Part shown: piece after piece, positions 657 through 26,936 of the stretch
How positions within the stretch are numbered: position 1 is the stretch's first letter
How the letters are laid out: each line of letters opens with the position of its first letter
Assembly: GCA_964538145.1 (NCBI GenBank)
Contig: CAZIEC010000003.1
Coordinates: 21,368 to 53,963, forward strand
Source of the DNA: an uncultured archaeon
Lineage (GTDB): Archaea > Asgardarchaeota > Lokiarchaeia > Sigyniarchaeales > SOKP01
Length of the DNA stretch: 32,596 bases
Direction of reading: 5' to 3'
Notes under the pieces: generated by a model
What the model was told of the DNA's origin: nothing
What the model saw: only the letters and a program-made list of their open reading frames with translations
The model's database searches: none
Program-made: the position numbers and the translations under genes

Positions 657-926
657 ATGGAGGATCAAACCGATAAAGAACGAATTATCAGCTTGGTAAA
701 ACAAGCAATTGAAATGTTATGTGAAAAGAACCTCTCCAGTGTCGTGATTTTATCATCATATAAGATTAATTCTGTCTTGAGAGAACACTATGGAATTGAT
801 ATTAGAGTAGATAGAATAGGAAGGATTTTGAGCAATTTAGCAAAAAGAAACAAGCTCAAGAGATTAAGCACGAATATCCCAAAATATCAATTACCAGTCT
901 CGAATTTATCTACTTTGGAATTTTAA
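657..926 (+). CDS. Small hypothetical protein (89 aa), possibly a winged-helix/HTH-like fold
   Basis: ORF with an ATG start and no SD; A/T-rich TATA-like stretch about 27 nt upstream, so possibly leaderless. Helix-rich basic sequence (RIGRILSNLAKRNKLKRL). No family recognised. Confidence 0.4.
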   Translation: MEDQTDKERIISLVKQAIEMLCEKNLSSVVILSSYKINSVLREHYGIDIRVDRIGRILSNLAKRNKLKRLSTNIPKYQLPVSNLSTLEF

Positions 927-965: not shown

Positions 966-2375
966 TTATCTTAATTGCCTGAATTCAGACGCTATTTTTT
1001 GGAGGCGATCAATCAATTCTTTTGTATTAGTACTTTTTTCAACTACTTGATTAAATTTTTCATCCAAATCATTGATTAATTTTATTAAATTATCTTCTGT
1101 AGAGTTAAAATTTGTTGATAAAGAATCTAAGATAACTTCATGAAATTCTTTAACTTTATTTTCGCAGGCTTTAACTTGTTCTCCATTAGAATTAATCTCT
1201 CCTTCAAGATTTCGAATTTTTTCACTGTTTTGATTGATCTTGGAAGAAATTGCATCTAAAATTCTCTCAAAGGTATTTGAAATTTTATCAAATTGACTGT
1301 TTATATCATCATTAATTTTCAAAAGCAAGGATTCTAATTCTGATTCAATGAACTTCCTATAATTTTCTTGTTCTTTCAGACTATTATCTAAAGATTCTGA
1401 AATGCTAGAAACAAAAACATTTGAAATTTCATTGAATTTTTTTTCAAAATAATTTTGTAATCCCTCTAATCCATTATTTATCGTGGTTTTTAATTGGTTT
1501 ATTGAACTTTTAAGATATCTACTCCCCTTAATACTCCCCTCTTCAACATCTATTAACCATTGTTCTAATTGTTTATTAAATGGTTGAGCAAAAGAATTTA
1601 CAAGAGCCATGGTACCATCTGTTATCCCCTTACTCAAAGATTGAATTTTATTTTCAATTTCTACGATATCTTGTTCAACCATTTCCTTTTTTTGTAAGGG
1701 AATCTCCTGTAAATCACCCTGAGATGGTTTTACATGTTCTCCATATTCATGGATAAGAATTTGATCTTTTCTTTGAATGCTCTCTACTAAATGTTGAACC
1801 CATTTAAAAAATTCTAAAGTTTTAGGAGGTTCTAATTGACAATTAATCTCAATTAATTCATCATGCTTGTTATGATCTTTAAATCGATATGCTTGAAAGG
1901 AAAATATGCTCTTTTTTTCAACTTTAATGGGATCAAAAGTTAAACAAAAAGCATTTGGAAAATTATCATTTTGGAAATATCTATGTATTTGAATATCTGC
2001 TGATGTAAGTTTCAAATCATATTTTGGGTGCGATATATACCAACCAATGATCCGTAATGATTCATTAGAATGTTCCATTTTAATTTTATCTAAAAGAGCT
2101 TCCAATTCTCTTGAAAGACCTAATTCAATATAGTCGCCATGGGTCAATGGAATACATTCTTTCACGATCAATACATTCTTCTCATTATTTTCTTGTTCTC
2201 CTAAACAAACTCCCATTGCTTCTACGGGGGTTTCTAAAAAAGAATTTCCAAATCTTAGAATGTGAAAGATCATTTTCTTAAATGCTTCTGGCTTTATTAT
2301 TATTTTATCCAAACTCTTTGTTGTTAAGCCTTTCTCTTTACTTTCATTAACTTGATCTTCTAAATTATTTTCCAT
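966..2375 (-). CDS. MPN- (degenerate JAMM) domain protein with a ~240-aa C-terminal helical/coiled-coil region
   Basis: The MPN scaffold is kept (E52 in PVEAMGVCLG; IIGWY-ISHP), but the canonical HxHx7Sx2D reads I114-S-H116-x7-T124-x2-D127 (nt 1995-2036). The first zinc-ligand His is therefore Ile and the Ser is Thr. Residues ~230-469 are K/E/N/S-rich and heptad-like. The ATG at 2375 directly abuts the TAA (2376-2378) of the upstream gene, and AGGAGGT lies 8 nt upstream. Confidence 0.85.
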   Translation of the reverse strand: MENNLEDQVNESKEKGLTTKSLDKIIIKPEAFKKMIFHILRFGNSFLETPVEAMGVCLGEQENNEKNVLIVKECIPLTHGDYIELGLSRELEALLDKIKMEHSNESLRIIGWYISHPKYDLKLTSADIQIHRYFQNDNFPNAFCLTFDPIKVEKKSIFSFQAYRFKDHNKHDELIEINCQLEPPKTLEFFKWVQHLVESIQRKDQILIHEYGEHVKPSQGDLQEIPLQKKEMVEQDIVEIENKIQSLSKGITDGTMALVNSFAQPFNKQLEQWLIDVEEGSIKGSRYLKSSINQLKTTINNGLEGLQNYFEKKFNEISNVFVSSISESLDNSLKEQENYRKFIESELESLLLKINDDINSQFDKISNTFERILDAISSKINQNSEKIRNLEGEINSNGEQVKACENKVKEFHEVILDSLSTNFNSTEDNLIKLINDLDEKFNQVVEKSTNTKELIDRLQKIASEFRQLR

Positions 2376-3863
2376 TTAATCGACCTCCTTTTCGAATTTC
2401 TTAATTTTTTGGCTAAGATTTTCATTTTCCTTTTTCAATTCCTTGATTTTAGCGATTAATTCTTCTCTTTCTTCTTCTAATGATTTAATCTTATTAAAAA
2501 TAGGTTCCTTAGTGCTCTCGATGATTAAAACAATAGCCTTAAGATCTTCAAATAATTTTCTCGTTTCTACATCAAATGCTTGTATTTCTTTATCAATTTT
2601 ATTGAAATATTTTGAAATATTTTGAACAAATTTATCACTGATTTTCGAAAAATCCTCTTGAATTTGAGATTTGACCCTTTCAAGTTCTTTGGTTAATTCT
2701 TGGAGGTTAGAACGGTTATTTTTGAGTAATTCAGAAACTTTTTCAAGATTATCGTTGTTATTATTGAATAGATTTAAAGATTCTTCAAATTTTTTAAAAA
2801 AATCATCTAATTTTTCTTCAAGTTTTTTGCTAAACGATTCCTTTAACAGATTTTTTAATTTATTAGAAAAATCTACGATATAATTCTTTGAATTATCTAT
2901 TTTTTCATTGTAAACGTCAAGTTTATCACTGATATAAAAATCTAAACTGTTCATTTTATCATGCAAGGAATAATTAAAGTTTTTTTGGATTTCCATCATG
3001 CTTTTACTTAAATTCAATTTTAATTGTACTAAATCTTCTCGTATATTCATGTTATTAATAAATACATTCTTCAATAACTTCTGGCTCCAGTTATTTAATA
3101 AGTCCATGAATGGATCTAATGAGTGCTTTAAGAATAGCGAAAATCCTTCTTGAAAAGATTTGATGATTGCTGTAGCAGAGAACTCTGGTTTTTTAACCAT
3201 CAAATCTTCTTTTTTTGGGATGTACAAATCTTCAAAAAAATCAGTTGTTTCATTCAATTCTAAAATAGGAGCTTCCCCAGTATAAAGGTTCTGAATTAAT
3301 TCAATTATTTTATTATAGAAATCAACATTATCAGGAGGTTCAACAATAGCTTTAACTTCATGATATCCTGACCCCCTGCTCTTTGTTGGATCATCTAGTC
3401 TAAATGCTCTAAACCCAGGATCTCCAGGGGTTTCTAACAAATTATGATCAAAAACTAAGCCAATACCACTTGGATTTTTGGCTTGCCAAAACAATTGGTT
3501 TTGCACGTCCGTGCCACTAAAGAAAGGCGTTAAATTGGGATGGCTATGATACCAACCACAACTAAACCATCCTTCATGACCGTGTTCTTCAAATACTTTA
3601 TTATCTATTTCTGCAAAAGCCCCCAATTGTTCTGGAGAATATCTCACCTCTATTGCTCCTCCATGTGATACCGGAATGGCATCTTCAATTATAAGAAATT
3701 TTTTTCCATCTTTTTCATCAATATGTCCGATTAATCCTCCCATTACTTCTTTACATTGTGTAGGATCTTTGACTTTAGATCCAAATCGAAGTACATGAAC
3801 GAGCATCTTGTAATAAGCTAGCGGTTTTACGATTACGGGTATATCTTCAGTATTCTTTGGCAT
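2376..3863 (-). CDS. MPN+ JAMM metalloisopeptidase-like protein with a ~270-aa C-terminal coiled-coil region
   Basis: Complete JAMM signature: E39 (CKEVMGGLIG) and GWYHSHPNLTPFFSGTD = H106-x-H108-x7-S116-x2-D119 (nt 3507-3548). The C-terminal half is a long K/E/N/L heptad-rich helical region ending ...EEREELIAKIKELKKENENLSQKIKKFEKEVD. Confidence 0.9.
   Translation of the reverse strand: MPKNTEDIPVIVKPLAYYKMLVHVLRFGSKVKDPTQCKEVMGGLIGHIDEKDGKKFLIIEDAIPVSHGGAIEVRYSPEQLGAFAEIDNKVFEEHGHEGWFSCGWYHSHPNLTPFFSGTDVQNQLFWQAKNPSGIGLVFDHNLLETPGDPGFRAFRLDDPTKSRGSGYHEVKAIVEPPDNVDFYNKIIELIQNLYTGEAPILELNETTDFFEDLYIPKKEDLMVKKPEFSATAIIKSFQEGFSLFLKHSLDPFMDLLNNWSQKLLKNVFINNMNIREDLVQLKLNLSKSMMEIQKNFNYSLHDKMNSLDFYISDKLDVYNEKIDNSKNYIVDFSNKLKNLLKESFSKKLEEKLDDFFKKFEESLNLFNNNNDNLEKVSELLKNNRSNLQELTKELERVKSQIQEDFSKISDKFVQNISKYFNKIDKEIQAFDVETRKLFEDLKAIVLIIESTKEPIFNKIKSLEEEREELIAKIKELKKENENLSQKIKKFEKEVD
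2383..2389 (-). promoter_or_regulatory. Shine-Dalgarno (AGGAGGT) for the MPN- gene, embedded in the 3' end of the MPN+ gene (translational coupling)
   Basis: Plus strand reads acctcct, so minus-strand sense reads AAGGAGGTCGATTAA-ATG. The stop codon of 2376..3863 is immediately followed by the start codon at 2375. Confidence 0.6.
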
Positions 3864-4182
3864 AAAAAATTCACTTTTTCTTGTTAATTTTTTACTTTTA
3901 ATTATTAATTCTTTAAATCTTTTAAATCTTTAAATAAAATCTCATTTTCATTATAGATATTAATAGTAGGATTCTTTTTTAAAGCTGTACTTATTAAGGA
4001 TGAAAATTAATCTTAACAGATCTCCAAACTAATCATATCAATATTGCTTTGAATATTTTTTTATTAATTTTTAACCTTAATGAGGAATAAGAACAAAGAA
4101 TTTACTAATTTACATATTAATTTAAAAAATTTCTTAAAAAATGATTAAACTCATTTAAAAATAGAATAAACAAAATAGAAAA

Positions 4183-4848
4183 TTAAAATGGTAGAGGTTT
4201 ACCGCAATATGGGCAGAATTTCCAATTCAAATCTTTTCCACATGAAGGGCAAACTCTTGAATCAGTAGAAGGAGGTTCATATCCAGGTATTGGAGGTAAT
4301 TCTCGAGTAGGTCTTATAATTTTAACAGGTTTAGAAGGATGGGAGTGCGATACTGGAGTTGAGGAAGATGTAGTTCCAACTACTTCTTCTTTTTTTGCCA
4401 TCAATCTTTCTTTAAAGGCTTGACGCAAGTCTTCTTTACTCGTCATTCCTTCCTCTTTAACCCAACCAGAAACTTTTGGACGTTTCAATTCACTTTCAGG
4501 TACTTTTTCCAATACAACTTTTTTAGTTTCTGAGATTGGTGCCATGACCTTCTTTTGTTCCTTATTTTGAATTGCTTGCTTAATTAATGCTTGAGTTGTT
4601 TTCATTACTTGATGTGGATTAATGTTTGGGATTGCAACAGTTCTTAAAACCCATCCAACAATCATATTTTGATTGGGGAATCCAGACGATGTAATATCTT
4701 CATCTTTATACACGTACGAATCGATTACATTATTACCTTTTAATAATCTTGAAGCCCATTTACCATTTATAAGACCTAATTGGAGTCTATATGATGTCCC
4801 AGCAATTCCTAATTGGCTCGAGAGAGGCTCAAATCCTTTTTCTGACAT
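4183..4848 (-). CDS. Hypothetical protein: ~100-aa N-terminal globular domain, Lys/Glu/Pro-rich low-complexity linker, C-terminal CxxC-x8-CxxC zinc ribbon
   Basis: C-terminus is RVCPSCGKDLNWKFCPYCGKPLPF. The linker reads ...SSSTPVSHSHPSKPVKIIRPTRELPPIPGYEPPSTD. The N-terminal family is not recognised. Confidence 0.7.
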   Translation of the reverse strand: MSEKGFEPLSSQLGIAGTSYRLQLGLINGKWASRLLKGNNVIDSYVYKDEDITSSGFPNQNMIVGWVLRTVAIPNINPHQVMKTTQALIKQAIQNKEQKKVMAPISETKKVVLEKVPESELKRPKVSGWVKEEGMTSKEDLRQAFKERLMAKKEEVVGTTSSSTPVSHSHPSKPVKIIRPTRELPPIPGYEPPSTDSRVCPSCGKDLNWKFCPYCGKPLPF

Positions 4849-5005
4849 GATAATCCGTTATTTTTTCAATTAAAATATTTGATTTTATTCTGTATATTAT
4901 ATGTAAAAATTTTAATTTAAATTATGTTATGTTTCTAAAAAAAAATACATAAATAACCTAAGTTTTATGTAATGAATTAAGAAAATTATAATTAAAGTTT
5001 CTTTC

Positions 5006-5956
5006 ATGACAGTCATCATACCAAAAAAAGCATATTTAACTATTGTAGCAGCAAGCGTTAGATTTGCCAATCAGAAAATTCCTAGAGATGATTGGTTGGA
5101 AGTTAGCGGAATATTTATAGGAAAAAACGAGGGAAATGATGTGATAATCTCGAAAGCTTATCCCATCATGCATCAAGAATTAGATAAAGATGCAGTTATC
5201 GATCAATATAAGTGGAGCGATGAAGACATGATAGTTGCATCTGAGATTGAATTAGAAGCTTATGAAAGAAATGAATTCATTGTAGGATGGTGGCATAGTC
5301 ATCCAGGTTTTAAAGTGATGATGAGTCATATAGATATTAAAACAACTCTTTCATATCAACAACACAATCCATTAGCAATTTCTTTAGTATTTAACCCTGA
5401 AAGATTATTACGTCAAATAGAATTACCCAATAAAAAAGGAGATCCTGTAAAGCAGTTAAAGAACGATCCTGGATTTAAAATTTTTAGATTAGATGATGTC
5501 TCCAAAGGAATTCAAGCATCATATCATGAAGTAGATTATAAGATTGAAGGGTATGACAGTTTAGACCAATTAGTAAAACTTACTCAAAAATTTATTATTG
5601 ACATTACGAATTTCTTTCCAAAAGATAATATCTATGAAGTTTATGAGAGCTTTATTGATGAAAGAATCAATAAATTAGAATCCATTCTGTTAGGTACTGA
5701 AGAATATCTAAAAACTTTAGCCCGAACGGGCGAATCACACAGAATTTCTGAAGTATTAGATAATCAAGTAAAAGAAATCAGAAAATATGTTGCTGAAACT
5801 TATATTAAAATCGAAAATATCAGAGAGTTCATGGATTACTTGGAATACAAGGAGAGAGATGCAGTCATTCCTAAGGTAAACGAAATATTGTTGAGATGGG
5901 ACGAAACCATATCAACATTAGATGAAAAAATTGAGAATTTAAAGAAAGTCGTTTAA
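5006..5956 (+). CDS. MPN+ JAMM metalloisopeptidase-like protein (316 aa) with a ~130-aa C-terminal helical region
   Basis: E32 (WLEVSGIFIG) and VGWWHSHPGFKVMMSHID = H97-x-H99-x7-S107-x2-D110 (nt 5294-5335). C-terminal helical segment reads ...LESILLGTEEYLKTLARTGE...STLDEKIENLKKVV. Confidence 0.9.
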   Translation: MTVIIPKKAYLTIVAASVRFANQKIPRDDWLEVSGIFIGKNEGNDVIISKAYPIMHQELDKDAVIDQYKWSDEDMIVASEIELEAYERNEFIVGWWHSHPGFKVMMSHIDIKTTLSYQQHNPLAISLVFNPERLLRQIELPNKKGDPVKQLKNDPGFKIFRLDDVSKGIQASYHEVDYKIEGYDSLDQLVKLTQKFIIDITNFFPKDNIYEVYESFIDERINKLESILLGTEEYLKTLARTGESHRISEVLDNQVKEIRKYVAETYIKIENIREFMDYLEYKERDAVIPKVNEILLRWDETISTLDEKIENLKKVV

Positions 5957-6112
5957 AGTATCGTATTTTATTTTTATCCACTCATTTTTAATTACCTACT
6001 TGTAATCCGTGTAAAAAAAGGAAAATCTTTATTTTACTTGGACATTTTTTTATTTAAACGATTATTTAAGTAAAAGATTATAAAAGAATTATTAAAGAGT
6101 TCGATTTACACG

Positions 6113-8320
6113 ATGAAAAAAATAAATTTTCCTTTTACAGCAATATTAGGTCAAGATAAAATGAAATTGGGGCTCATTCTCAACATCATAGACCCCCAAA
6201 TAGGAGGCATCTTATTAACGGGACAACAAGGAACGGGCAAATCTACTGCGGTTCGTTCTTTGGTCGATGTGATGCCAAAAATTGAAGTTGTTAAAGGATG
6301 CACTTTTTCTTGTGATCCAAAATCAGATTTAGAAGATTTATGTGAAGAATGTAGAGAAAAGAAAAAAAATAATAATTTAGAAATAATAACAAGAAAAATG
6401 CGAATTGTAAACCTTCCTTTAGGAGTTACTGAAGATATGGTCTGTGGTTCATTATCCATAGATAAGGTAATTAGTGAAGGGATCAAGAGCTTGCATCCTG
6501 GACTATTAGCAAAAGCAAATAGGGGAATACTCTATGTGGATGAAATAAATTTATTACAAGATCATATTGTCGATGTTCTTTTAGATGCTGCTGCTTCTGG
6601 GGTAAATATTATAGAAAGAGAGGGGATTTCTGTATCACATCCTTCTCGTTTTGTTTTAGTAGGGAGCATGAATCCAGAGGAAGGTGATCTTAGGCCTCAA
6701 ATAGCTGATCGCCTTGGATTAGAAGTAAAAATCGAAGCTCCTCGTGATCCTAAATTGAGAGCAGAAATTACAAAACGAGTTATTGAATTCAATGATAATC
6801 CAAAAGAATTCATTAAAAGATTTGAAAAGGAGCAAGAAATATTAAGAGATAAAATAGTTCGAGCTAGACAAATTTTAAAACAAGTAGAGATTCCCGCAAC
6901 GGTTTATGAATTTGTATCAATGATTGTAAATGAGTTAGGAATCTTTTCTCAGCGAGCAGATATTACTTTTATTAGATGTGCCCGGGCTCATGCTGCATTT
7001 AATGGGAGAACTCACATAGAGGAAGAAGACTTGAATGTTGCTTTAGATTTAGTTTTTGAACACCGCATCCAATCACTCCATTATGAAATGACTCCAGAAG
7101 AAATTAAAGGAAAGATCACGGAAGTATATGGAAAAATTCAGAAAGCATATGAAGATCCTAAAGCATATCAACCAAATAGGGAAACTGAAGGTCCAATGAA
7201 ATATGATGATACGCCTCAAAAAGAATTTAAAAGGCAATCAATAGATCCCAAGAAAGTATCGATCCCAGAAACTAAAGAACAAAAATTGCCCCCTCCTAAA
7301 TATCCTGATAACAAAAAGAGAACTCCCGAACCAGCTGGAGGATGGAAAGTTAAAGACATCCCTCGTGAGGAAATTGATTTTAATTTCTTTAAAAACAACC
7401 TCAACACGGCGATGCCTTTAATTTACAAGATGGAAAAAAAGATGACTTCAATTTTAGACAATATTAGAAAGGATAGGAAAGTTTCTGATTATGGTGGAAG
7501 GGGAATTGGGAGAAGAATAAAAATCGCTTCAAGCCAAAAAGGAAGATATGTTTCTTATAGAGCGCCATTAAATCGTCCAAAAAGCTTAGCTTTAGATGCA
7601 ACAATAAGAAATTTTTTGAAAAATACAATCTACAATCGAACAGATTTAAAGTTTCCATTAAAATTTGATAAATATGATTTAATGGATAAAATCTATGAAT
7701 ACAGGGCTCCATTAGTTCTATTTTTCGTGTTAGACAGCTCGGCATCAATGTACTATGTCATAAAGCAGATGACGGATGTAATAATGTCTTTACAAAAAGA
7801 AGGTTATAGAAAAAAAGATAAAATCAGCTTGATAATCTTTAGAGGTAAGGAAGCAATAGTTTTGCAGAAGCCTACAGTTAATTTTAAGAGTGCCATAGGA
7901 AAACTTAAGAAAATTGAAGGGAGATCATACACACCAATGGCTGCGGCATTAAAAAAATGCATGAAACTGATTGAAGCTGAAAAACTTAAAAATAGAAATG
8001 TTATTCCAGTTATTTTCATATGTTCTGATTGTGGTGCTAATATTTCTGTAAAATATCCAGATCTAATAGCTCAAGTTCAAAGTGATTATAAATTAATCAT
8101 CAATGAATTAAAAGAGTTGACAAAATCTCTAAATAAAAAGGGAGTTCACATAGTTGTTCTTGAACCAAAGAAAAGCTATGCTACAAGGGCTCTCGGTGTA
8201 AACACATTTGCGGCTGATCAAATTAAAAAGAATTTTAAAACTTATGCTAAAGCTGAAATTTTTCAATTTGATAGATATAACCCTAAAAGTTTAATACTTG
8301 AATTAAAAAAGATCTTATAA
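6113..8320 (+). CDS. Fused ChlI/BchI-type AAA+ ATPase plus Pro-rich linker plus ChlD-type vWA (MIDAS) domain protein
   Basis: The N-terminus FPFTAILGQDKMKLGLILNIIDPQIGGILLTGQQGTGKST is the classic ChlI/BchI opening, with Walker A at nt 6221-6247. Cys-rich insert CTFSCDP...LCEEC; Walker B GILYVDEINLL; linker ...KLPPPKYPDNKKRTPEPAGG. The vWA MIDAS is LFFVLDSSASM (D541-S-S-A-S, nt 7733-7747), plus downstream YTPM and SDCGAN. Confidence 0.9.
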   Translation: MKKINFPFTAILGQDKMKLGLILNIIDPQIGGILLTGQQGTGKSTAVRSLVDVMPKIEVVKGCTFSCDPKSDLEDLCEECREKKKNNNLEIITRKMRIVNLPLGVTEDMVCGSLSIDKVISEGIKSLHPGLLAKANRGILYVDEINLLQDHIVDVLLDAAASGVNIIEREGISVSHPSRFVLVGSMNPEEGDLRPQIADRLGLEVKIEAPRDPKLRAEITKRVIEFNDNPKEFIKRFEKEQEILRDKIVRARQILKQVEIPATVYEFVSMIVNELGIFSQRADITFIRCARAHAAFNGRTHIEEEDLNVALDLVFEHRIQSLHYEMTPEEIKGKITEVYGKIQKAYEDPKAYQPNRETEGPMKYDDTPQKEFKRQSIDPKKVSIPETKEQKLPPPKYPDNKKRTPEPAGGWKVKDIPREEIDFNFFKNNLNTAMPLIYKMEKKMTSILDNIRKDRKVSDYGGRGIGRRIKIASSQKGRYVSYRAPLNRPKSLALDATIRNFLKNTIYNRTDLKFPLKFDKYDLMDKIYEYRAPLVLFFVLDSSASMYYVIKQMTDVIMSLQKEGYRKKDKISLIIFRGKEAIVLQKPTVNFKSAIGKLKKIEGRSYTPMAAALKKCMKLIEAEKLKNRNVIPVIFICSDCGANISVKYPDLIAQVQSDYKLIINELKELTKSLNKKGVHIVVLEPKKSYATRALGVNTFAADQIKKNFKTYAKAEIFQFDRYNPKSLILELKKIL

Positions 8321-8359
8321 AAGATCTATTTACTTTGTTTTTCACGCGATTTTTTAAAA

Positions 8360-9616
8360 ATGAGTGATAAAAAATCAATTTTGGTCTTGGGTTTTAACAC
8401 GCGTCCATTAGCATTTTCATTAAAGCAATCAGGATTTGATGTTTACGTGGTTGATTTTTTTGGAGATATTGACTTATTTCCTTACGTGAAGGATTCAATC
8501 ATCATTACAGAAAGATTAAATTCCAATTATGAAGCTCTTAAAGAGGATTTTGACATTTATCTCATTAACTTCGGTTTAGAAATGCTTAAAAAATACCCTA
8601 ATATAGATTATTTCCTTATTGGGAGTGGATTAGACGATGCAATCAATGAAAGAAGAGTTTTTGAAGAAAAAATTAATGAATTAGGTCTTAAAATAAAAAA
8701 TACAAACAATGATCTAAAAATAATTGAAAAGGCAAGAGACATAAATCTTATCCATAAAATCTTAAAAGAGAATGATTTTCCAGTACCATTAACATGCAAC
8801 TTAGAAAACGTGGATGATTTATCCTTTGATTTTACCTTTCCAATCATTCTAAAAAAGAAACATAGTTCTGGAGGCATTAGTATTAAGAAAATAAAAAATA
8901 GGACCGAATTAAAGGAAGAAAAATGGAAAATGATTAAGAATAAGATAAATTTAAGTGATTGGTTAGTCCAAGAATATATCGAGGGAATTCCTGTTAGTTG
9001 TACTTTCATTTCAAATGGTATCAAATCAGAAATAATTTCGATTAATCAACAATTAATTGGAGAAAAAGTTTCAAACCCTCCTTCTAACTTTTTTTACTGT
9101 GGAAATGTAGTACCTGCAAAAATTTCAAAAAAAGATAAAGATTTAATTACCAAAATATCATTAAGATTAGCTTCTGAATTAGGATTGAAAGGTATAAACG
9201 GGATAGACTATGTTTTAAGAGATCATGATCCTTTTTTTATGGAAATTAATCCTCGAATTCCAGGATCAATAAGAGCATCTGAGTGTAGCTTGAATATAAA
9301 TTTATTAGATCTACACGTAAAAAGTTTTGAAACTTTTAAATGGAAAAACATAGTTAATCATCTAAAATCAATTTCTAAAATTGAATATGCAACTAAATTA
9401 ATCATGTATGCTTCCAAAGACTTAAATGAGCTCCACTTAGAACAAATTAATAATTTAAAAAATGTACACGACAAAACACTTCCGCAAAAAGGAGCTAAAA
9501 AGGGGGATCCTGTTTGTACTATTTTAAACGTGGATGATGATCATGATAGTTCATATAAGGGAGCTTTAAAAATAGCAAATAAAATCAATTTGATAATGAA
9601 TGAGTCCTCATACTAA
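8360..9616 (+). CDS. ATP-grasp superfamily ligase (predicted carboligase/peptide ligase, COG2232-like)
   Basis: Rossmann-like pre-ATP-grasp N-terminus (ILVLGFNTRPLAFSLKQSGFDVYVVDFFGD). ATP-binding Lys plus Gly loop (PIILKKKHSSGGISI). WLVQEYIEG, and the catalytic FFMEINPRIPGS motif. Confidence 0.8.
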   Translation: MSDKKSILVLGFNTRPLAFSLKQSGFDVYVVDFFGDIDLFPYVKDSIIITERLNSNYEALKEDFDIYLINFGLEMLKKYPNIDYFLIGSGLDDAINERRVFEEKINELGLKIKNTNNDLKIIEKARDINLIHKILKENDFPVPLTCNLENVDDLSFDFTFPIILKKKHSSGGISIKKIKNRTELKEEKWKMIKNKINLSDWLVQEYIEGIPVSCTFISNGIKSEIISINQQLIGEKVSNPPSNFFYCGNVVPAKISKKDKDLITKISLRLASELGLKGINGIDYVLRDHDPFFMEINPRIPGSIRASECSLNINLLDLHVKSFETFKWKNIVNHLKSISKIEYATKLIMYASKDLNELHLEQINNLKNVHDKTLPQKGAKKGDPVCTILNVDDDHDSSYKGALKIANKINLIMNESSY

Positions 9617-10342
9617 AATTGATTTTATTTTCGCTACATAACTACCTAATTTTCTCTCATCTGCCTCTGGAACTGCTATTGCCAAAATTCTGTTATTATC
9701 TAGTTTATGTATTATAATTGAACCGTTTTCCCCTCCAATAATTGAATATTCAAGTTCTTCATCTAGTAAAACGGCAGCTAAGTTGTAGATAGCAGATATC
9801 ATTGCCGACAATATTGGTTCTGGCATGGTTGCTTGTACTTTAATAGGCAAACCTTCTTTAGTGATAATGGCTATTACTAAAGCGTTTGGAATTGCCCTTT
9901 TTAATGCAACAAAAATCTCTTCCTTAATTAAATCAGAGGTTTCTACGATTGCTGATAATTGAATAGCTAGATTTTTTAATGAATTGATGTAAGAATCTAA
10001 ACCTTCAAGTTCCGCAAGTTCTCTATTAAGATAAGCGATTAAAGTTATATTTTCTGTAAGAATGGAAAGAATTAGGTTGTTCTTACCAGTTACTAAATTA
10101 TAAGAAATTTGTTGATTTAATGAATCTAAGAGAATTTTAGAAGATAAAAATATTAAGCTGCTACTGGCTGCTGATATTTCAGTTTTTGTTAATTTAATAT
10201 TTCCTTTAAAAATACTTGCTAAATGGGTGCCTCCATGTGTCGATACAGTAATCCCTAAAATTCCTGAATTGGTCTCTAACTTTTTAGATATAAGATTCTT
10301 GAGATCATCTTCTAATCGAGTAATATTCTTTTCTGGCACCAT
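9608..10342 (-). CDS. Tandem Roadblock/LC7 (MglB-like) domain protein
   Basis: 244 aa forming two ~115-aa halves. Each has the Roadblock-like pattern helix, then GILGITVSTHGGTHLAS / ALVIAIITKEGLPIKVQ strands, helix, three strands and helix. Assignment is by pattern only. The 3' end overlaps the ATP-grasp gene convergently by 9 nt. Confidence 0.65.
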   Translation of the reverse strand: MVPEKNITRLEDDLKNLISKKLETNSGILGITVSTHGGTHLASIFKGNIKLTKTEISAASSSLIFLSSKILLDSLNQQISYNLVTGKNNLILSILTENITLIAYLNRELAELEGLDSYINSLKNLAIQLSAIVETSDLIKEEIFVALKRAIPNALVIAIITKEGLPIKVQATMPEPILSAMISAIYNLAAVLLDEELEYSIIGGENGSIIIHKLDNNRILAIAVPEADERKLGSYVAKIKSILV

Positions 10343-10618
10343 GAAAATAATATAGTCTTTATTGATTTTAAAATTAATGTCCTAAGCAAGAAATATGATA
10401 AATGAGTTTTGGTCCTTAGTTTATCGGTTATAACATTTTTATAAAATTAGATGATAGTATTTCTTGGTATTTAGAGATTAAACATTAAACTATATCTATA
10501 TTAATCATGTATAAAAGGACATGAAGTAAAAAAAAGAATTATAAACATGTAGTACTATATTTATTCATAAATCTCTTATATATAAGATACTTTATCGAAT
10601 GCTATTAAGGAAATCAAA

Positions 10619-11596
10619 ATGAGTCAAGATAATAATCCCGAAGCATCATTAAGAGCAAAATTGGAAATGAGAGAAAAGCAACTCATTGATTTTCAAGAAG
10701 AACTTAAGGAAAAAAATGATTATATTGAATTATTAAAAAAGTCTTTAGAGAAATTTGAAGATAAAGTGAAACAGATAAAGTTTTTTGACGAGCAATTGAA
10801 AGTAAAGGATGACCTCATAAATAATCTTCAAAATTCTTTAAAATTAAAGGATGATCAAATTAATACACTAAAAGATTCTCTAAAATTAAAAGATGAGCAA
10901 ATTGAAACGCTTGAAAATTCTCTTTCAATAAAAGAAGAAAAAATAGAAACTCTTGAAAAAACAATAAAACTCAAGGAGGAAAAAATTAAGCAACTTGAAG
11001 AATCGACCATAGACAAGGATTTATTTGAAGAAAAAGATGAAGAAATTAAAAAATTAAAGGAAAAATTAGAAATATTAAAAGAAGAATTAGAAAAAGCAGA
11101 TGAAGATTTAGAAGCATTGGAAAAAGAAAATGAAGTTCTAAGAAATCAACTAGCCGCAGCATCGGGAGCAAAAATTATTGATTGGACGAATGTGGAAATA
11201 CCTAAATCGTTAATTCTTGAAAAAATGCGTGAAATCCTTAACGAAGCCGTACACAATGTCACGATTGCCGTTCCGGATATAAAAGATTTACAAGAATTAC
11301 ACTTATATGACTTGAGATCTTCTGTAAGCATGAAAGTTTCTTGCTCTCTAAATCCTGGTTTAGAAGAAGATGCAGAATTATTAGAGGAATTGGAGAGTTT
11401 GGATAATATCTCCATTAGATTGTATGAAGGACAAGATAGGTACTTGATTGAGAGAGATGGAGAGGAATTAATGTTCGCAATAATTGGTAATGAAGAAAAT
11501 AACCATTTAGTATTACATACTCGGGATCCCAAGCATTTAAAACTACTAAGATCTTTAGTCATGGAAAGCTGGCTCAGATCTAGGAAAATTGAATGA
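10619..11596 (+). CDS. Coiled-coil protein with five 14-residue tandem repeats and a C-terminal ~140-aa globular domain
   Basis: Residues 1-180 are almost pure K/E/L heptads. The C-terminal part (IIDWTNVEIP...ISIRLYEGQDRYLIERDGEELMFAI...LVMESWLRSRKIE) has mixed alpha/beta character and no recognised family. Confidence 0.75.
   Translation: MSQDNNPEASLRAKLEMREKQLIDFQEELKEKNDYIELLKKSLEKFEDKVKQIKFFDEQLKVKDDLINNLQNSLKLKDDQINTLKDSLKLKDEQIETLENSLSIKEEKIETLEKTIKLKEEKIKQLEESTIDKDLFEEKDEEIKKLKEKLEILKEELEKADEDLEALEKENEVLRNQLAAASGAKIIDWTNVEIPKSLILEKMREILNEAVHNVTIAVPDIKDLQELHLYDLRSSVSMKVSCSLNPGLEEDAELLEELESLDNISIRLYEGQDRYLIERDGEELMFAIIGNEENNHLVLHTRDPKHLKLLRSLVMESWLRSRKIE
10796..11005 (+). repeat. 5 x 42-nt in-frame tandem repeat (14-aa units LK[LV]KD[DE]QI.TL..S)
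   Basis: Units read LKVKDDLINNLQNS / LKLKDDQINTLKDS / LKLKDEQIETLENS / LSIKEEKIETLEKT / IKLKEEKIKQLEES. Unit starts at 10796 and 10964 were verified to be 4 x 42 nt apart. Confidence 0.8.
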
Positions 11597-26225: not shown

Positions 26226-26936
26226 TTATTCATTTATAAATTTCTCATTATTAATCTTCTTATCCAGGATGGTAAGATCTTCTTCTATTTTTTCTGTTGG
26301 AGCGGTACCGTTACCATATATCTGGTATAAAACAGTTCGCCTAGCACATTCATAGAAACTGCGATAAATATTTTTATTTTTTCCATAAATTGCACATGTT
26401 TTATAAATAATGGGATTCCATAAATGCAAATTATTATTAGAATCGAACCATAATTTTTCTTTTTTTAAAATTTGAATGAAATCCTCTTCATCAATGACAT
26501 CATCCAAATCTTGCTTATTAAGCATTACTACAAATGGAAGCTTAACTATCAAGGAGTCTTTAGCAACTTTTTTCAATTCTAATAAAGATTCGATATTATC
26601 TTCTAAATATTTAGTTTGAGAATCCACTACAAAAATAACTGAATCTGCACCCTCAAATATACGTGCTCTTAAGGGAGAGAAACTTGATTGCCCTGCAACA
26701 GTAAATACACGATAATATACTTTTTTTTGTTCCTTAGATTGAAAGATCCCTCTATCAAAATATAGTGTTGCTCCACTTGTCTTGGAGATTTTTTGAAGTT
26801 CTCCTATAGGAACGATTTCTTTCTTGTTTTCTTTAGTGATCTTGTATAACGTGTCTAAAATTGTGGTTTTCCCGGAACCTCCCATTCCCCAATAAACTAT
26901 CTTTAGATAAACATTTCCATTCTTGTAAAGTACCAT
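26226..26936 (-). CDS. MglA-like small Ras-superfamily GTPase
   Basis: G1 GMGGSGKTT (nt 26865-26888). G3 reads T79-V-A-G-Q83 (nt 26688-26702), the TxxGQ variant typical of the MglA family instead of DxxGQ. G4 is NKQD (res 140-143); G5-like is KTCAI. ~50-aa C-terminal extension. Confidence 0.85.
   Translation of the reverse strand: MVLYKNGNVYLKIVYWGMGGSGKTTILDTLYKITKENKKEIVPIGELQKISKTSGATLYFDRGIFQSKEQKKVYYRVFTVAGQSSFSPLRARIFEGADSVIFVVDSQTKYLEDNIESLLELKKVAKDSLIVKLPFVVMLNKQDLDDVIDEEDFIQILKKEKLWFDSNNNLHLWNPIIYKTCAIYGKNKNIYRSFYECARRTVLYQIYGNGTAPTEKIEEDLTILDKKINNEKFINE

What the first reader, a model, noticed from the sequence alone, without database searches (positions are those of the whole stretch)
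966..9616. System-level hypothesis: MPN+/MPN-, Zn-ribbon, MPN+, AAA+-vWA and ATP-grasp as one protein-(de)conjugation or remodelling module
Six consecutive genes in two divergent transcription units combine several activities. The active and inactive JAMMs are candidate isopeptidases. The AAA+ module is a candidate ATP-driven remodeller, and the MIDAS-vWA a protein-protein adaptor (Rpn10 is the vWA subunit that docks on the Rpn8/Rpn11 side of the proteasome lid). The Zn-ribbon is a possible receptor. ATP-grasp enzymes are amide-bond ligases known to add amino-acid or peptide tags, for example RimK-type. The component list is reminiscent of a minimal lid-like or tag/de-tag apparatus. I know of no described system with this composition. 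The functional link is entirely inferred from adjacency.
Basis: inference. Interest (0 to 1): 0.65.

Follow-up and report, generated by a model that had tools for sequence, protein, structure and literature searches.

The report
Lokiarchaeal MPN / AAA-vWA gene neighbourhood
Six real genes sit together in many Loki-type Asgard archaea: three eukaryote-like MPN protease paralogs, a zinc-ribbon protein, an orphan chelatase-type AAA+-vWA motor and an ATP-grasp ligase. Only the active/inactive MPN pair behaves as a functional unit, and nothing shows that all six form one tagging/de-tagging machine.

Summary
All six genes and their domain calls are confirmed. They are MPN- (966-2375), MPN+ (2376-3863), a Zn-ribbon protein (4183-4848), a second MPN+ (5006-5956), a ChlI/ChlD-type AAA+-vWA fusion with intact Walker A/B and MIDAS (6113-8320), and an ATP-grasp_3 ligase (8360-9616). 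The host is a low-GC Loki-type Asgard archaeon.

The block recurs in 49 distinct related loci. That synteny does not discriminate, because unrelated flanking genes (tandem Roadblock, coiled-coil protein, PHP phosphatase, MFS, P-type ATPase) are equally conserved.

Outside this clade only the MPN+/MPN- pair stays together. AAA+-vWA orthologs in other Asgard lineages (41-58% identity; 7 loci, 5 with flanks inspected) have neither MPN nor ATP-grasp neighbours. The three MPN genes are mutual paralogs, so local duplication can explain their closeness. Intergenic spacers carry separate conserved promoter-like elements and no shared motif.

The AAA+-vWA is an orphan. No CobN was found at 0 of 54 Asgard-type loci, against 32 of 71 generic ChlI/ChlD loci.

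Verdict: a real, undescribed, clade-specific neighbourhood of at least three units. The six-gene machine remains an unsupported inference (about 10%).

Side find: 31-32-nt bulge-helix-bulge-like insertions interrupt the AAA+-vWA gene in several relatives.

The parts
657..926 (+). 89-aa small basic protein (possible winged-helix), convergent with the MPN- gene. It is a constant companion of the MPN pair.
   Evidence: Adjacent to MPN- in 44 of 46 loci at 62-79% identity. It has only a weak DUF5797 hit. The winged-helix reading is my inference from the sequence.
966..2375 (-). MPN- pseudo-protease (469 aa) with a ~270-aa helical tail. Its start abuts the stop of the upstream MPN+ gene.
   Evidence: JAB 5e-14. 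The motif is ISH..S..D, with the first His lost. It is colinear with P0002 over its whole length (23% identity, E 9e-24). None of its 49 orthologs keeps the full site, and the lesions differ between lineages.
2376..3863 (-). MPN+ JAMM metalloprotease (495 aa) with a two-helix rod (about 230-309 and 318-494).
   Evidence: JAB 2.9e-11. The E/HSH/S/D site is invariant in 54 of 55 family members. AF2 model. Foldseek top hits are BRCC36 at 3.8e-10, then CSN5, Rpn11 and eIF3f/h. phmmer against PDB gives BRCC36 at 3.4e-8.
4183..4848 (-). Zn-ribbon protein (221 aa): a conserved N-domain (1-100), a disordered linker with conserved short motifs, and a C-terminal CPxC-x8-CPxC ribbon.
   Evidence: Pfam Zn_ribbon_3. 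Alignment A2 shows an invariant PNINP motif. The AF2 N-domain has pLDDT of about 90 with a 4-strand plus 2-helix fold, and no PDB fold match reaches E<0.2. It is adjacent to MPN+316 in 39 of 44 loci and to MPN+495 in 40 of 46.
4849..5005 (.). Divergent AT-rich spacer between the Zn-ribbon gene and MPN+316. It contains the conserved 9-mer ACATAAATA.
   Evidence: The 9-mer is present in 24 of 38 orthologous spacers. Sequence.
5006..5956 (+). Third MPN paralog: MPN+ (316 aa) with a ~130-aa helical tail.
   Evidence: JAB 5.6e-14. The catalytic positions are kept in all 35 members (E/H-x-H/S-or-T/D; three carry conservative Ser/Thr changes). It is 28% identical to P0002 (E 2e-22). Best PDB sequence hits are CSN5, Caldiarchaeum Rpn11 and Rpn11.
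6020..6036 (+). Conserved BRE/TATA-like element GGAAAATCTTTATTTTA, about 77 nt upstream of the AAA-vWA start. It is a candidate own promoter for the AAA-vWA / ATP-grasp unit.
   Evidence: The same or a subgroup-specific conserved block occurs in the orthologous spacers. The spacer length is tightly conserved (median 127 nt, IQR 123-137). The promoter function is inferred.
6113..8320 (+). Orphan ChlI-ChlD fusion: an intact AAA+ module with a Cys4 insert, a Pro-rich linker and a MIDAS vWA domain.
   Evidence: ChlI 2e-103 and BchD vWA 2e-7 in PDB. TIGR02442 scores 592 against a cut-off of 779. It is 72-83% identical across the clade. CobN is present at 0 of 54 Asgard-type loci, against 32 of 71 generic loci.
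8360..9616 (+). ATP-grasp_3 amide ligase (418 aa), 39 nt downstream of the AAA-vWA gene. It overlaps the convergent Roadblock gene by 9 nt.
   Evidence: Pfam 1e-29. All NCBIfam hits fall far below their cut-offs. PDB best hits are Ddl at 1.7e-8 and 3df7 at 1e-7. The median gap to the AAA-vWA gene is 45 nt in 27 loci. Insertions of 0.9-2.7 kb separate the two genes in 4 loci, and an MFS gene does so in L093.
9608..11596 (.). Outside the finding: the tandem Roadblock/LC7 protein (9608-10342, -) and the coiled-coil protein (10619-11596, +). These are the only neighbours of the AAA-vWA gene that persist in more distant Asgard lineages.
   Evidence: In L091 (AAA-vWA 58% identical) the Roadblock is 42% and the coiled-coil protein 36% identical, and both lie next to the AAA-vWA gene. 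In L092 both lie within 3 kb.

Best explanation
The stretch is a clade-specific, slowly rearranging chromosomal neighbourhood of Loki-type Asgard archaea. It holds at least three separate units rather than one demonstrated machine.

Unit 1 is the translationally abutting tandem paralogs MPN+ (2376-3863) and MPN- (966-2375).
- They most likely form a heterodimeric Zn-dependent JAMM isopeptidase, in which the dead copy scaffolds or activates the live one, as in BRCC36-Abraxas or Rpn11-Rpn8.
- The ~250-300-residue two-helix rods would mediate pairing and higher-order assembly.
- The upstream Zn-ribbon protein is a plausible adaptor.
- The substrate, a Ub-like or other Gly-linked tag, is not identified.

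Unit 2 is a third MPN+ paralog (5006-5956), transcribed divergently from the Zn-ribbon gene.

Unit 3 is an orphan ChlI/ChlD-type AAA+-vWA fusion with its own conserved promoter-like element.
- It probably forms an ATP-driven ring that uses its MIDAS-vWA to grip and remodel a protein client other than a linked CobN/ChlH.
- An ATP-grasp amide ligase follows 39 nt downstream.

Two things explain the co-localisation. The three MPN genes arose by local duplication, and gene order turns over slowly in this clade.

Shown: gene content, motifs, paralogy, synteny statistics and absence of CobN in the flanks. Inferred: heterodimer formation, isopeptidase activity, the motor's client and the promoters.
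For: Domain and motif calls.

Synteny in 49 distinct loci, given as adjacent / with insertion / missing:
- MPN+/MPN-: 47/1/0.
- MPN-/small protein: 44/0/2.
- MPN316/Znr: 39/0/5.
- Znr/MPN495: 40/5/1.
- ATPgrasp/AAAvWA: 27/4/0.
- AAAvWA/MPN316: 26/8/2.
- Control, Robl/ATPgrasp: 27/1/1.
- Control, CC/Robl: 19/5/1.

Wider flanks (MFS, HMA ATPase, NifU, Lactamase_B, PHP) are also syntenic.

Distant genomes:
- L049 keeps only the MPN+/MPN- pair, between Band_7, TYW2 and ABC transporter genes.
- L052-L056 hold a solo MPN+.
- AAA-vWA orthologs in Freyarchaeia-type L089/L101 and in L090, L091, L092 and L098 lack MPN and ATP-grasp neighbours.

Paralogy: P0001 against P0002 gives E 9e-24 over full length, and P0002 against P0004 gives E 2e-22. 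Both are far better than any PDB MPN hit, at about 1e-8 to 1e-10.

Active sites: invariant in both MPN+ families, and variably decayed in all 49 MPN- orthologs.

Structure: MPN domain plus two long helices, with top fold hits BRCC36, CSN5 and Rpn11.

Intergenic regions: gap medians are 45 nt (AAAvWA to ATP-grasp), 127 nt (MPN316 to AAAvWA), 171 nt (Znr to MPN495) and about 0 nt (MPN+ to MPN-). Each spacer has its own conserved elements and none is shared.

CobN: present at 0 of 54 Asgard-type loci against 32 of 71 generic loci.

No PADLOC defence-system match.
Against: - The block has stayed together at protein divergences of 40-55% for ordinary genes. Even where insertions of 1-4 kb occur, the parts remain in the same order (L093, L086, L027, L040, L043). 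Selection for co-localisation could also produce this.
- MPN316-AAAvWA spacing is unusually constant (IQR 123-137 nt).
- Eukaryotic MPN+/MPN- complexes do recruit vWA subunits (Rpn10, MERIT40; my knowledge), so the combination has precedent.
- No transcript data exist.
- The taxonomic depth of the 49 loci cannot be verified from the record titles.
Confidence: 0.6

Rival explanations
1. One reading: all six genes encode one protein (de)conjugation or remodelling apparatus. The ATP-grasp adds a tag, the MPN+ enzymes remove it, the MPN- and Zn-ribbon proteins act as scaffold or receptor, and the AAA+-vWA is a lid-like or Rpn10-like motor and adaptor.
For: The same six genes occur in the same order in most of 49 related loci and in three further metagenome contigs. 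The order is kept across insertions. The Asgard-type AAA-vWA has no CobN nearby. The ATP-grasp fits no curated metabolic equivalog. No published description was found.
Against: Flanking unrelated genes are equally syntenic. The links vanish outside the clade. Each unit has its own promoter-like elements and there is no shared motif. No tag, Ub-like, E1, E2 or PCI gene is present. The vWA is BchD/ChlD-type. The nearest relatives of the ATP-grasp are small-molecule ligases such as Ddl, PylC and MfnD. MPN clustering is explained by paralogy.
Confidence: 0.1
2. Partial module: MPN+316, AAA+-vWA and ATP-grasp (5006-9616, one strand) work together, for example as a motor-coupled isopeptidase. The Zn-ribbon plus MPN+/MPN- arm is a separate system.
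For: The three genes share a strand. Spacing is constant at about 127 nt and about 45 nt. They are adjacent in 26 of 36 and 27 of 31 loci. An earlier follow-up on a relative reached the same three-gene core (e1-3515434).
Against: This is the weakest junction of the block, with 8 insertions and 2 apparent losses. T-rich sequence follows the MPN316 stop, and a conserved BRE/TATA-like element precedes the AAA-vWA gene. Non-Loki AAA-vWA orthologs have neither partner.
Confidence: 0.15
3. The AAA+-vWA is an ordinary class I (cobalt- or other metal-) chelatase motor whose CobN/ChlH partner is encoded elsewhere. The ATP-grasp is an unrelated metabolic ligase. The neighbourhood with the MPN genes is then coincidental.
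For: The AAA+ module matches ChlI at 2e-103 and the vWA matches BchD. TIGR02442 'putative cobaltochelatase' scores 1e-177. Scores grade continuously into generic ChlI/ChlD families.
Against: The TIGR02442 score is below its cut-off, at 592 against 779. CobN is present at 0 of 54 Asgard-type loci, against 32 of 71 generic loci. Conservation of 72-83% across a clade whose ordinary enzymes are about 50% identical is unusual for a cofactor-pathway accessory. Genome-wide absence of CobN could not be tested.
Confidence: 0.15

Closest known systems
BRCC36-Abraxas/ABRO1 (KIAA0157) MPN+/MPN- heterodimer, the core of BRISC and BRCA1-A
   Same: An active JAMM is paired with an inactive MPN paralog, and both have C-terminal helical extensions. 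BRCC36 is the best sequence hit (3.4e-8) and the best fold hit (3.8e-10) of the 495-aa MPN+. From my own knowledge, BRISC also contains a vWA subunit, MERIT40.
   Different: The tails here are ~250-300-residue two-helix rods, not a short coiled coil. The MPN- copy is a local duplicate of the neighbouring MPN+, and its best PDB hits are Rpn11, not Abraxas, Rpn8 or CSN6. It therefore arose independently. No UEV/BRE-like gene is present. The vWA here is ChlD-type and fused to an AAA+ motor.
Rpn11-Rpn8 and CSN5-CSN6 in PCI-MPN complexes (proteasome lid, COP9 signalosome), with Rpn10 as the vWA subunit
   Same: A eukaryote-type JAB (PF01398) domain, an MPN+/MPN- pair, and helical tails that bundle. 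CSN5 and Rpn11 are the top hits of the 316-aa MPN+ and close seconds for the 495-aa one.
   Different: No PCI-domain genes are in the window. The only weak PCI hit is in an inserted small ORF of one relative. There is no proteasomal ATPase context. The vWA does not match Rpn10.
Caldiarchaeum subterraneum Rpn11-like JAMM in the archaeal Ub/E1/E2/RING operon (PMC6043591, PMC5654768)
   Same: An archaeal JAMM of eukaryotic type. It is among the best PDB sequence hits, 6fjv/6fju at 8.5e-10 and 9.5e-6.
   Different: That enzyme is a ~150-230-aa single-domain protein encoded with ubiquitin, E1, E2 and RING (abstracts). Here there is no Ub-like, E1 or E2 gene, the tails are long, and there are three clustered paralogs.
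Class I chelatase motor ChlI/ChlD (BchI/BchD; fused 'Cob-chelat-sub', TIGR02442)
   Same: A ChlI-type AAA+ module (2e-103), a Pro-rich linker and a MIDAS vWA domain. The family continuum is seen.
   Different: An active ChlI module is fused to the vWA. The score is below the curated cut-off. No CobN/ChlH lies within 8-10 kb in any Asgard-type locus, whereas 32 of 71 generic relatives have one. Sequence conservation is very high.
ATP-grasp amide ligases (Ddl, PylC, MfnD, RimK/LysX, pseudomurein ligases)
   Same: An ATP-grasp_3 fold with an EINPR motif. It shows weak similarity to all of them.
   Different: It reaches none of the curated cut-offs. RimK family scores 39 against 143, LysX 26 against 276 and PylC 50 against 248. 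The substrate is unknown. No LysW-like acidic-tail carrier is present: the Zn-ribbon protein ends directly after its ribbon.

Membership tests
JAMM/MPN+ metalloprotease (Pfam JAB PF01398) | Pfam JAB score above the gathering cut-off | tested here: met
   52.6, 43.7 and 52.4 bits against a cut-off of 22.5 for the three genes.
JAMM/MPN+ metalloprotease (Pfam JAB PF01398) | Catalytic E ... H-x-H-x7-S-x2-D motif | tested here: met
   Met in P0002 (E39, H106/H108, S116, D119) and P0004 (E32, H97/H99, S107, D110). The site is invariant in 54 of 55 P0002 orthologs, and all 35 P0004 orthologs keep the catalytic positions (three with conservative Ser/Thr changes). It is not met in P0001 (I114 replaces the first His), which is therefore MPN-.
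JAMM/MPN+ metalloprotease (Pfam JAB PF01398) | Zn-dependent isopeptidase activity on a Ub or Ub-like conjugate | not testable with these tools
   Needs an enzyme assay. No candidate tag gene is in the window.
Eukaryote-style MPN+/MPN- heterodimer | One active and one inactive MPN paralog encoded or expressed together | tested here: met
   The genes abut (stop of P0002 at 2376-2378, start of P0001 at 2373-2375). They are adjacent in 47 of 48 loci. The second copy is always degenerate.
Eukaryote-style MPN+/MPN- heterodimer | Physical heterodimer through MPN domains and helical tails | not testable with these tools
   Only single-chain prediction was available. A multimer prediction or pull-down is needed.
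PCI-MPN complex (lid / CSN / eIF3) or BRISC-like complex | PCI scaffold subunits, or UEV (BRE) and a stand-alone vWA (Rpn10/MERIT40) partner | tested here: not met
   No PCI or UEV domain is found in any window ORF. The only vWA is ChlD-type and fused to an AAA+ module.
Class I (ChlI/ChlD/ChlH-type) chelatase | ChlI-type AAA+ with Walker A/B, plus a ChlD-type linker and MIDAS vWA | tested here: met
Class I (ChlI/ChlD/ChlH-type) chelatase | Curated family cut-off (TIGR02442 / TIGR02030 / TIGR02031) | tested here: not met
   592 against 779, 402 against 467 and 336 against 500 bits.
Class I (ChlI/ChlD/ChlH-type) chelatase | A large substrate-binding subunit CobN/ChlH/BchH encoded with it | tested here: not met
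   No CobN HMM hit in the window or in any of 54 Asgard-type loci (flanks of 8-10 kb), against 32 of 71 generic loci.
RimK/LysX-type protein-tagging ATP-grasp ligase | Family-level score, and a carrier or target protein with an acidic C-terminus nearby | tested here: not met
   TIGR00768 scores 39 against 143 and LysX 26 against 276. No LysW-like gene is present, and the Zn-ribbon protein ends ...CGKPLPF.
Known anti-phage defence systems (PADLOC) | Significant match of the components to a defence-system model set | tested here: not met
   Only generic JAB hits (at best 4e-8) and coiled-coil noise. Nothing was found for the Zn-ribbon protein, the ATP-grasp, the small protein or the Roadblock protein.

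The most novel reading that the evidence does not exclude
The three MPN paralogs, the Zn-ribbon protein and the orphan ChlI/ChlD AAA+-vWA motor (perhaps together with the tandem Roadblock and coiled-coil neighbours) assemble into a Lokiarchaeia-specific ATP-driven deconjugation machine. The MIDAS-vWA docks the MPN+/MPN- rods, as Rpn10 or MERIT40 do in eukaryotes, and the ATP-grasp writes the tag that the JAMMs erase. This would be an archaeal tag / de-tag / unfold apparatus built from parts unrelated to the PCI lid.
Probability: 0.1. Interest if true: 0.85.

Novelty: new variant of a known kind. Interest (0 to 1): 0.4.

Why it matters
Asgard archaea are the closest known relatives of eukaryotes. 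Active/inactive MPN pairs are hallmarks of eukaryotic deubiquitinase complexes (proteasome lid, signalosome, BRISC).

This region shows a conserved Loki-type locus with three eukaryote-type MPN paralogs, one of them decaying into a pseudo-enzyme. It sits next to a very strongly conserved chelatase-like AAA+-vWA motor that has lost any linked CobN partner.

If even part of the block proved to interact, it would be a new kind of archaeal protein-modification or remodelling machinery. As it stands, the value lies in two things. The work delimits which links are real (MPN+/MPN-, and possibly the Zn-ribbon protein) and which are only synteny. It also flags the orphan motor and its mini-introns for experiments in cultured Lokiarchaeia.

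Tried and rejected
- RNA-seq operon mapping: only DNA metagenomes (hydrothermal vent and marine sediment) hold the stretch, and there are no RNA runs.
- Ub-like or Ub-binding fold in the Zn-ribbon protein: the N-domain is confidently modelled, but no PDB fold hit is better than E=0.2. Rejected.
- LysW/LysX-type carrier system (Zn-ribbon carrier plus ATP-grasp): the ribbon is C-terminal with no acidic tail and the LysX score is negligible. Rejected.
- Defence-system reading: PADLOC gives nothing specific. Rejected.
- Shared regulatory motif across the three spacers: none was found among conserved 9-mers.
- Second MPN / Zn-ribbon pairing as support: a fourth MPN+ paralog (~520-530 aa, TPR/SNAP-like tail) is followed by a Zn-finger protein in L079, but that protein is not homologous to P0003. 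It is not used as evidence.
- The searches with P0005 and P0006 were saturated by close Loki orthologs. Distant orthologs came only from the representative search plus the cluster look-up.
- Literature: no paper on this cluster was found.

Full report
**Observation**

The window is AT-rich, at about 28% GC. Pfam and NCBIfam and the translations give the following.

| Coordinates (strand) | Protein | Features |
|---|---|---|
| 966-2375 (-) | 469-aa MPN- | Motif I114-S-H116...S124-x2-D127; first zinc-binding His lost; ~270-aa helical tail |
| 2376-3863 (-) | 495-aa MPN+ | E39, H106-S-H108-x7-S116-x2-D119; helical tail; its stop abuts the MPN- start |
| 4183-4848 (-) | 221-aa Zn-ribbon protein | C-terminal CPSC-x8-CPYC ribbon |
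| 5006-5956 (+) | 316-aa MPN+ | E32, H97-S-H99-x7-S107-x2-D110 |
| 6113-8320 (+) | 735-aa ChlI/ChlD-type fusion | Walker A 37-45, Walker B D143-E144, Cys4 insert 63-80, Pro-rich linker 393-407, MIDAS DSSAS 541-545 |
| 8360-9616 (+) | 418-aa ATP-grasp_3 protein | EINPR motif |

The gene content of the finding is therefore confirmed.

**Organism and spread**

Homologs of the 495-aa MPN+ are all from Asgard archaea. Most are labelled Promethearchaeota, Promethearchaeia or Lokiarchaeia. A scan of species-representative genomes with an alignment of these proteins returned 80 loci.

I searched those loci with tblastn and with family HMMs built from the window's proteins and their orthologs. Forty-nine distinct loci carry the orthologous MPN+ gene. 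Three metagenome contigs added later hold the full block (L094, L099, L103). Identities to the window are as follows.

| Protein | Identity to the window |
|---|---|
| AAA-vWA | 72-83% |
| MPN+316 | 56-75% |
| Zn-ribbon protein | 43-74% |
| 89-aa neighbour | 62-79% |
| ATP-grasp | 45-54% |
| MPN+495 | 36-57% |
| MPN- | 26-40% |

**Does synteny support one module?**

Counts of adjacent (700 nt or less) / same locus with an insertion / partner missing despite room are given below.

| Gene pair | Adjacent / insertion / missing |
|---|---|
| MPN+495 - MPN- | 47 / 1 / 0 |
| MPN- - 89-aa protein | 44 / 0 / 2 |
| MPN316 - Zn-ribbon | 39 / 0 / 5 |
| Zn-ribbon - MPN495 | 40 / 5 / 1 |
| ATP-grasp - AAA-vWA | 27 / 4 / 0 |
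| AAA-vWA - MPN316 | 26 / 8 / 2 |
| Control: Roadblock - ATP-grasp | 27 / 1 / 1 |
| Control: coiled-coil - Roadblock | 19 / 5 / 1 |

- Gene pairs outside the proposed module are as conserved as those inside it.
- Wider flanks (PHP histidinol phosphatase, MFS, P-type ATPase, NifU, metallo-beta-lactamase) recur as well.
- Conserved order here reflects slow rearrangement across the whole region. It does not single out the six genes.
- The weakest junction is the one the hypothesis needs most, AAA-vWA to MPN316.
- Some apparent losses are large insertions. In the window's closest relative the parts lie on one contig, separated by three inserted genes and an MFS gene.

**Beyond the clade**

- L049 (35% identity) keeps only the MPN+/MPN- pair, set among Band_7, TYW2 methyltransferase and ABC transporter genes.
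- Still more distant full-length homologs (26-29% identity, including Sigynarchaeum) are solitary.
- For the AAA-vWA, a search of 50%-identity cluster representatives plus a cluster look-up found orthologs at 41-58% identity in other Asgard lineages, labelled Freyarchaeota and Sigynarchaeota among others.
- Their contexts contain no MPN gene and no ATP-grasp_3 gene. These are L089/L101, L090, L091, L092 and L098.
- The only window neighbours that persist there are the tandem Roadblock protein (42% identity) and the coiled-coil protein (36%). They lie next to the AAA-vWA gene in L091 and within 3 kb in L092.
- That persistence may be residual synteny. An eIF2B-epsilon/GMPPB-like gene lies between these two genes both in L091 and in some Loki loci.

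**Paralogy**

- The MPN- protein aligns colinearly with the MPN+495 protein over the MPN domain and the tail (E 9e-24).
- MPN+316 aligns with MPN+495 at E 2e-22.
- Both scores are far better than any eukaryotic or archaeal MPN in the PDB, at about 1e-8 to 1e-10.
- The three genes are therefore local duplicates, which is enough to explain why they are neighbours.
- The catalytic positions are kept throughout both MPN+ families (identical in 54 of 55 MPN+495 members; all 35 MPN+316 members, three with conservative Ser/Thr changes). All 49 MPN- orthologs carry at least one lesion, and the lesions differ between lineages.
- A fourth MPN+ paralog with a TPR/SNAP-like tail lies elsewhere in the same genomes.

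**Structures**

- AF2 of MPN+495 has mean pLDDT 67. It gives an MPN domain followed by two very long helices, 230-309 and 318-494.
- Foldseek ranks BRCC36 first, in BRCA1-A and BRISC (3.8e-10), followed closely by CSN5, Rpn11 and eIF3f/h.
- The Zn-ribbon protein's N-domain is confidently predicted (pLDDT about 90; four strands and two helices). It matches no solved fold (best E 0.2). There is therefore no sign of a ubiquitin-like or known ubiquitin-binding domain.

**Transcription units (inferred)**

- Median gaps across relatives are about 0 nt (MPN+ to MPN-), 45 nt (AAA-vWA to ATP-grasp), 127 nt (MPN316 to AAA-vWA) and 171 nt (Zn-ribbon to MPN495).
- The spacers after the MPN316 and Zn-ribbon stops begin with T-runs.
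- The spacer upstream of the AAA-vWA gene holds a conserved BRE/TATA-like block, GGAAAATCTTTATTTTA at window 6020-6036, or a subgroup variant of it.
- The divergent spacer holds ACATAAATA in 24 of 38 loci.
- No conserved 9-mer is shared between the spacers.
- No RNA runs contain the region.

**The AAA-vWA**

- Its AAA+ module matches cyanobacterial ChlI at 2e-103, and its vWA matches BchD.
- It falls below all curated chelatase cut-offs.
- I built a CobN HMM from six large ORFs verified as PF02514 and searched all fetched loci with it.
- CobN was found beside 32 of 71 generic ChlI/ChlD loci and beside 0 of 54 Asgard-type loci.
- The gene is thus an orphan in its neighbourhood. Whether CobN exists elsewhere in these genomes could not be tested.

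**The ATP-grasp**

It belongs to ATP-grasp_3. It shows only weak resemblance to Ddl, PylC, MfnD, pseudomurein ligases and RimK/LysX, all far below their cut-offs.

**Other checks**

- No Ub-like, E1, E2, PCI or CobN gene is elsewhere in the window.
- No defence-system match was found.
- No literature on this cluster was found.
- Earlier notes of this scan on related loci reach compatible conclusions. I re-tested their main claims here.

**Conclusion**

- The neighbourhood is real, conserved within Loki-type Asgard archaea and undescribed.
- The data support only the MPN+/MPN- pair as a functional unit. The Zn-ribbon protein and the 89-aa protein are its most constant companions.
- The single six-gene (de)conjugation machine remains an inference from adjacency. 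I put it at about 10%.
- A three-gene MPN316 / AAA-vWA / ATP-grasp module stands at about 15%.

**Side observation**

In several relatives, though not in this window, the AAA-vWA gene is interrupted by 31-32-nt insertions at two fixed codon positions.

- The insertions fold into bulge-helix-bulge-like motifs.
- One case shows a compensatory base-pair change.
- Precise removal restores the conserved reading frame.
- They are candidates for archaeal splicing-endonuclease introns in an mRNA.

Noticed in passing
L005 ~5860-5950 (-), L040 ~3330-3420 (-), L093 6899-6960 (+), L100 1748-1812 (+); window equivalent ~6677-6690, where no insertion is present: In four independent Loki-type assemblies the AAA+-vWA gene carries an insertion of exactly 32 nt between codons ...SMNPE and (E)GELRPQ, so gene callers split the gene into 197 + 530 aa. 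Removing the 32 nt restores the consensus NPEEGELRPQ in frame. The site folds as h(CC/GG) - bulge AAA - 4-bp helix (CCGA/UCGG) - bulge AG(A) - 6-bp helix, a near-canonical bulge-helix-bulge motif. L100 shows a compensatory change in the inner helix (AUCCU/AGGAU becomes AUUCU/AGAAU). These are candidates for a splicing-endonuclease (BHB) intron in a protein-coding mRNA of Asgard archaea. I found no report of such introns.
   Followed up: partly
L100 ~1485-1516 (+) and L097 ~283 onward (+); window equivalent ~6431-6436: A second, 31-nt hairpin-forming insertion interrupts the same gene at another fixed site, between ...LPLGVTE and DMVCGS.... It again breaks the frame and is flanked by pairing segments (AGAACUCUUAA / UUAAGAUUCU).
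   Followed up: partly
window 9608-11596; L091 10935-13138; L092 14363-15831: The tandem Roadblock/LC7 protein and the divergently encoded coiled-coil protein (which has a conserved C-terminal globular domain) stay near the AAA+-vWA gene in two more distant Asgard lineages that lack the MPN and ATP-grasp neighbours. The orientation of the pair relative to the AAA+-vWA gene is inverted there. This may be a deeper functional link or residual synteny.
   Followed up: partly
L057-L085, e.g. L079 9884-11473 (+) and 11562-12269 (+): The same genomes encode a fourth MPN+ paralog (~520-530 aa) with an intact HSH..S..D site and a TPR/SNAP-like tail. In L079 it is followed by an acidic-tailed protein with two C2HC-like zinc fingers. 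That protein is not homologous to the window's Zn-ribbon protein.
   Followed up: partly
window 6299-6352 (residues 63-80 of the AAA+-vWA): A C-x3-C...C-x2-C insert in the AAA+ module is invariant in Asgard orthologs at 42-57% identity (alignment A3). It is probably a structural zinc site.
   Followed up: no
window 657-926 (+): An 89-aa basic protein, possibly a winged-helix regulator, is convergent with the MPN- gene. It is adjacent in 44 of 46 loci at 62-79% identity, which is better conserved than the MPN pair itself.
   Followed up: no
L086 8040-8342 (-) / L087 8040-8420 (-): In one relative, five small ORFs are inserted between MPN+316 and the AAA-vWA gene. One of them (100-126 aa) has a weak precomputed PCI-domain hit, most likely just a winged-helix domain.
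   Followed up: no
window 26226-26936 (-): An Arf/Ras-family small GTPase, typical of Asgard genomes, lies 16 kb from the Roadblock gene. In L091 and L090 Arf-like GTPases lie within 1-3 kb of the AAA-vWA ortholog.
   Followed up: no
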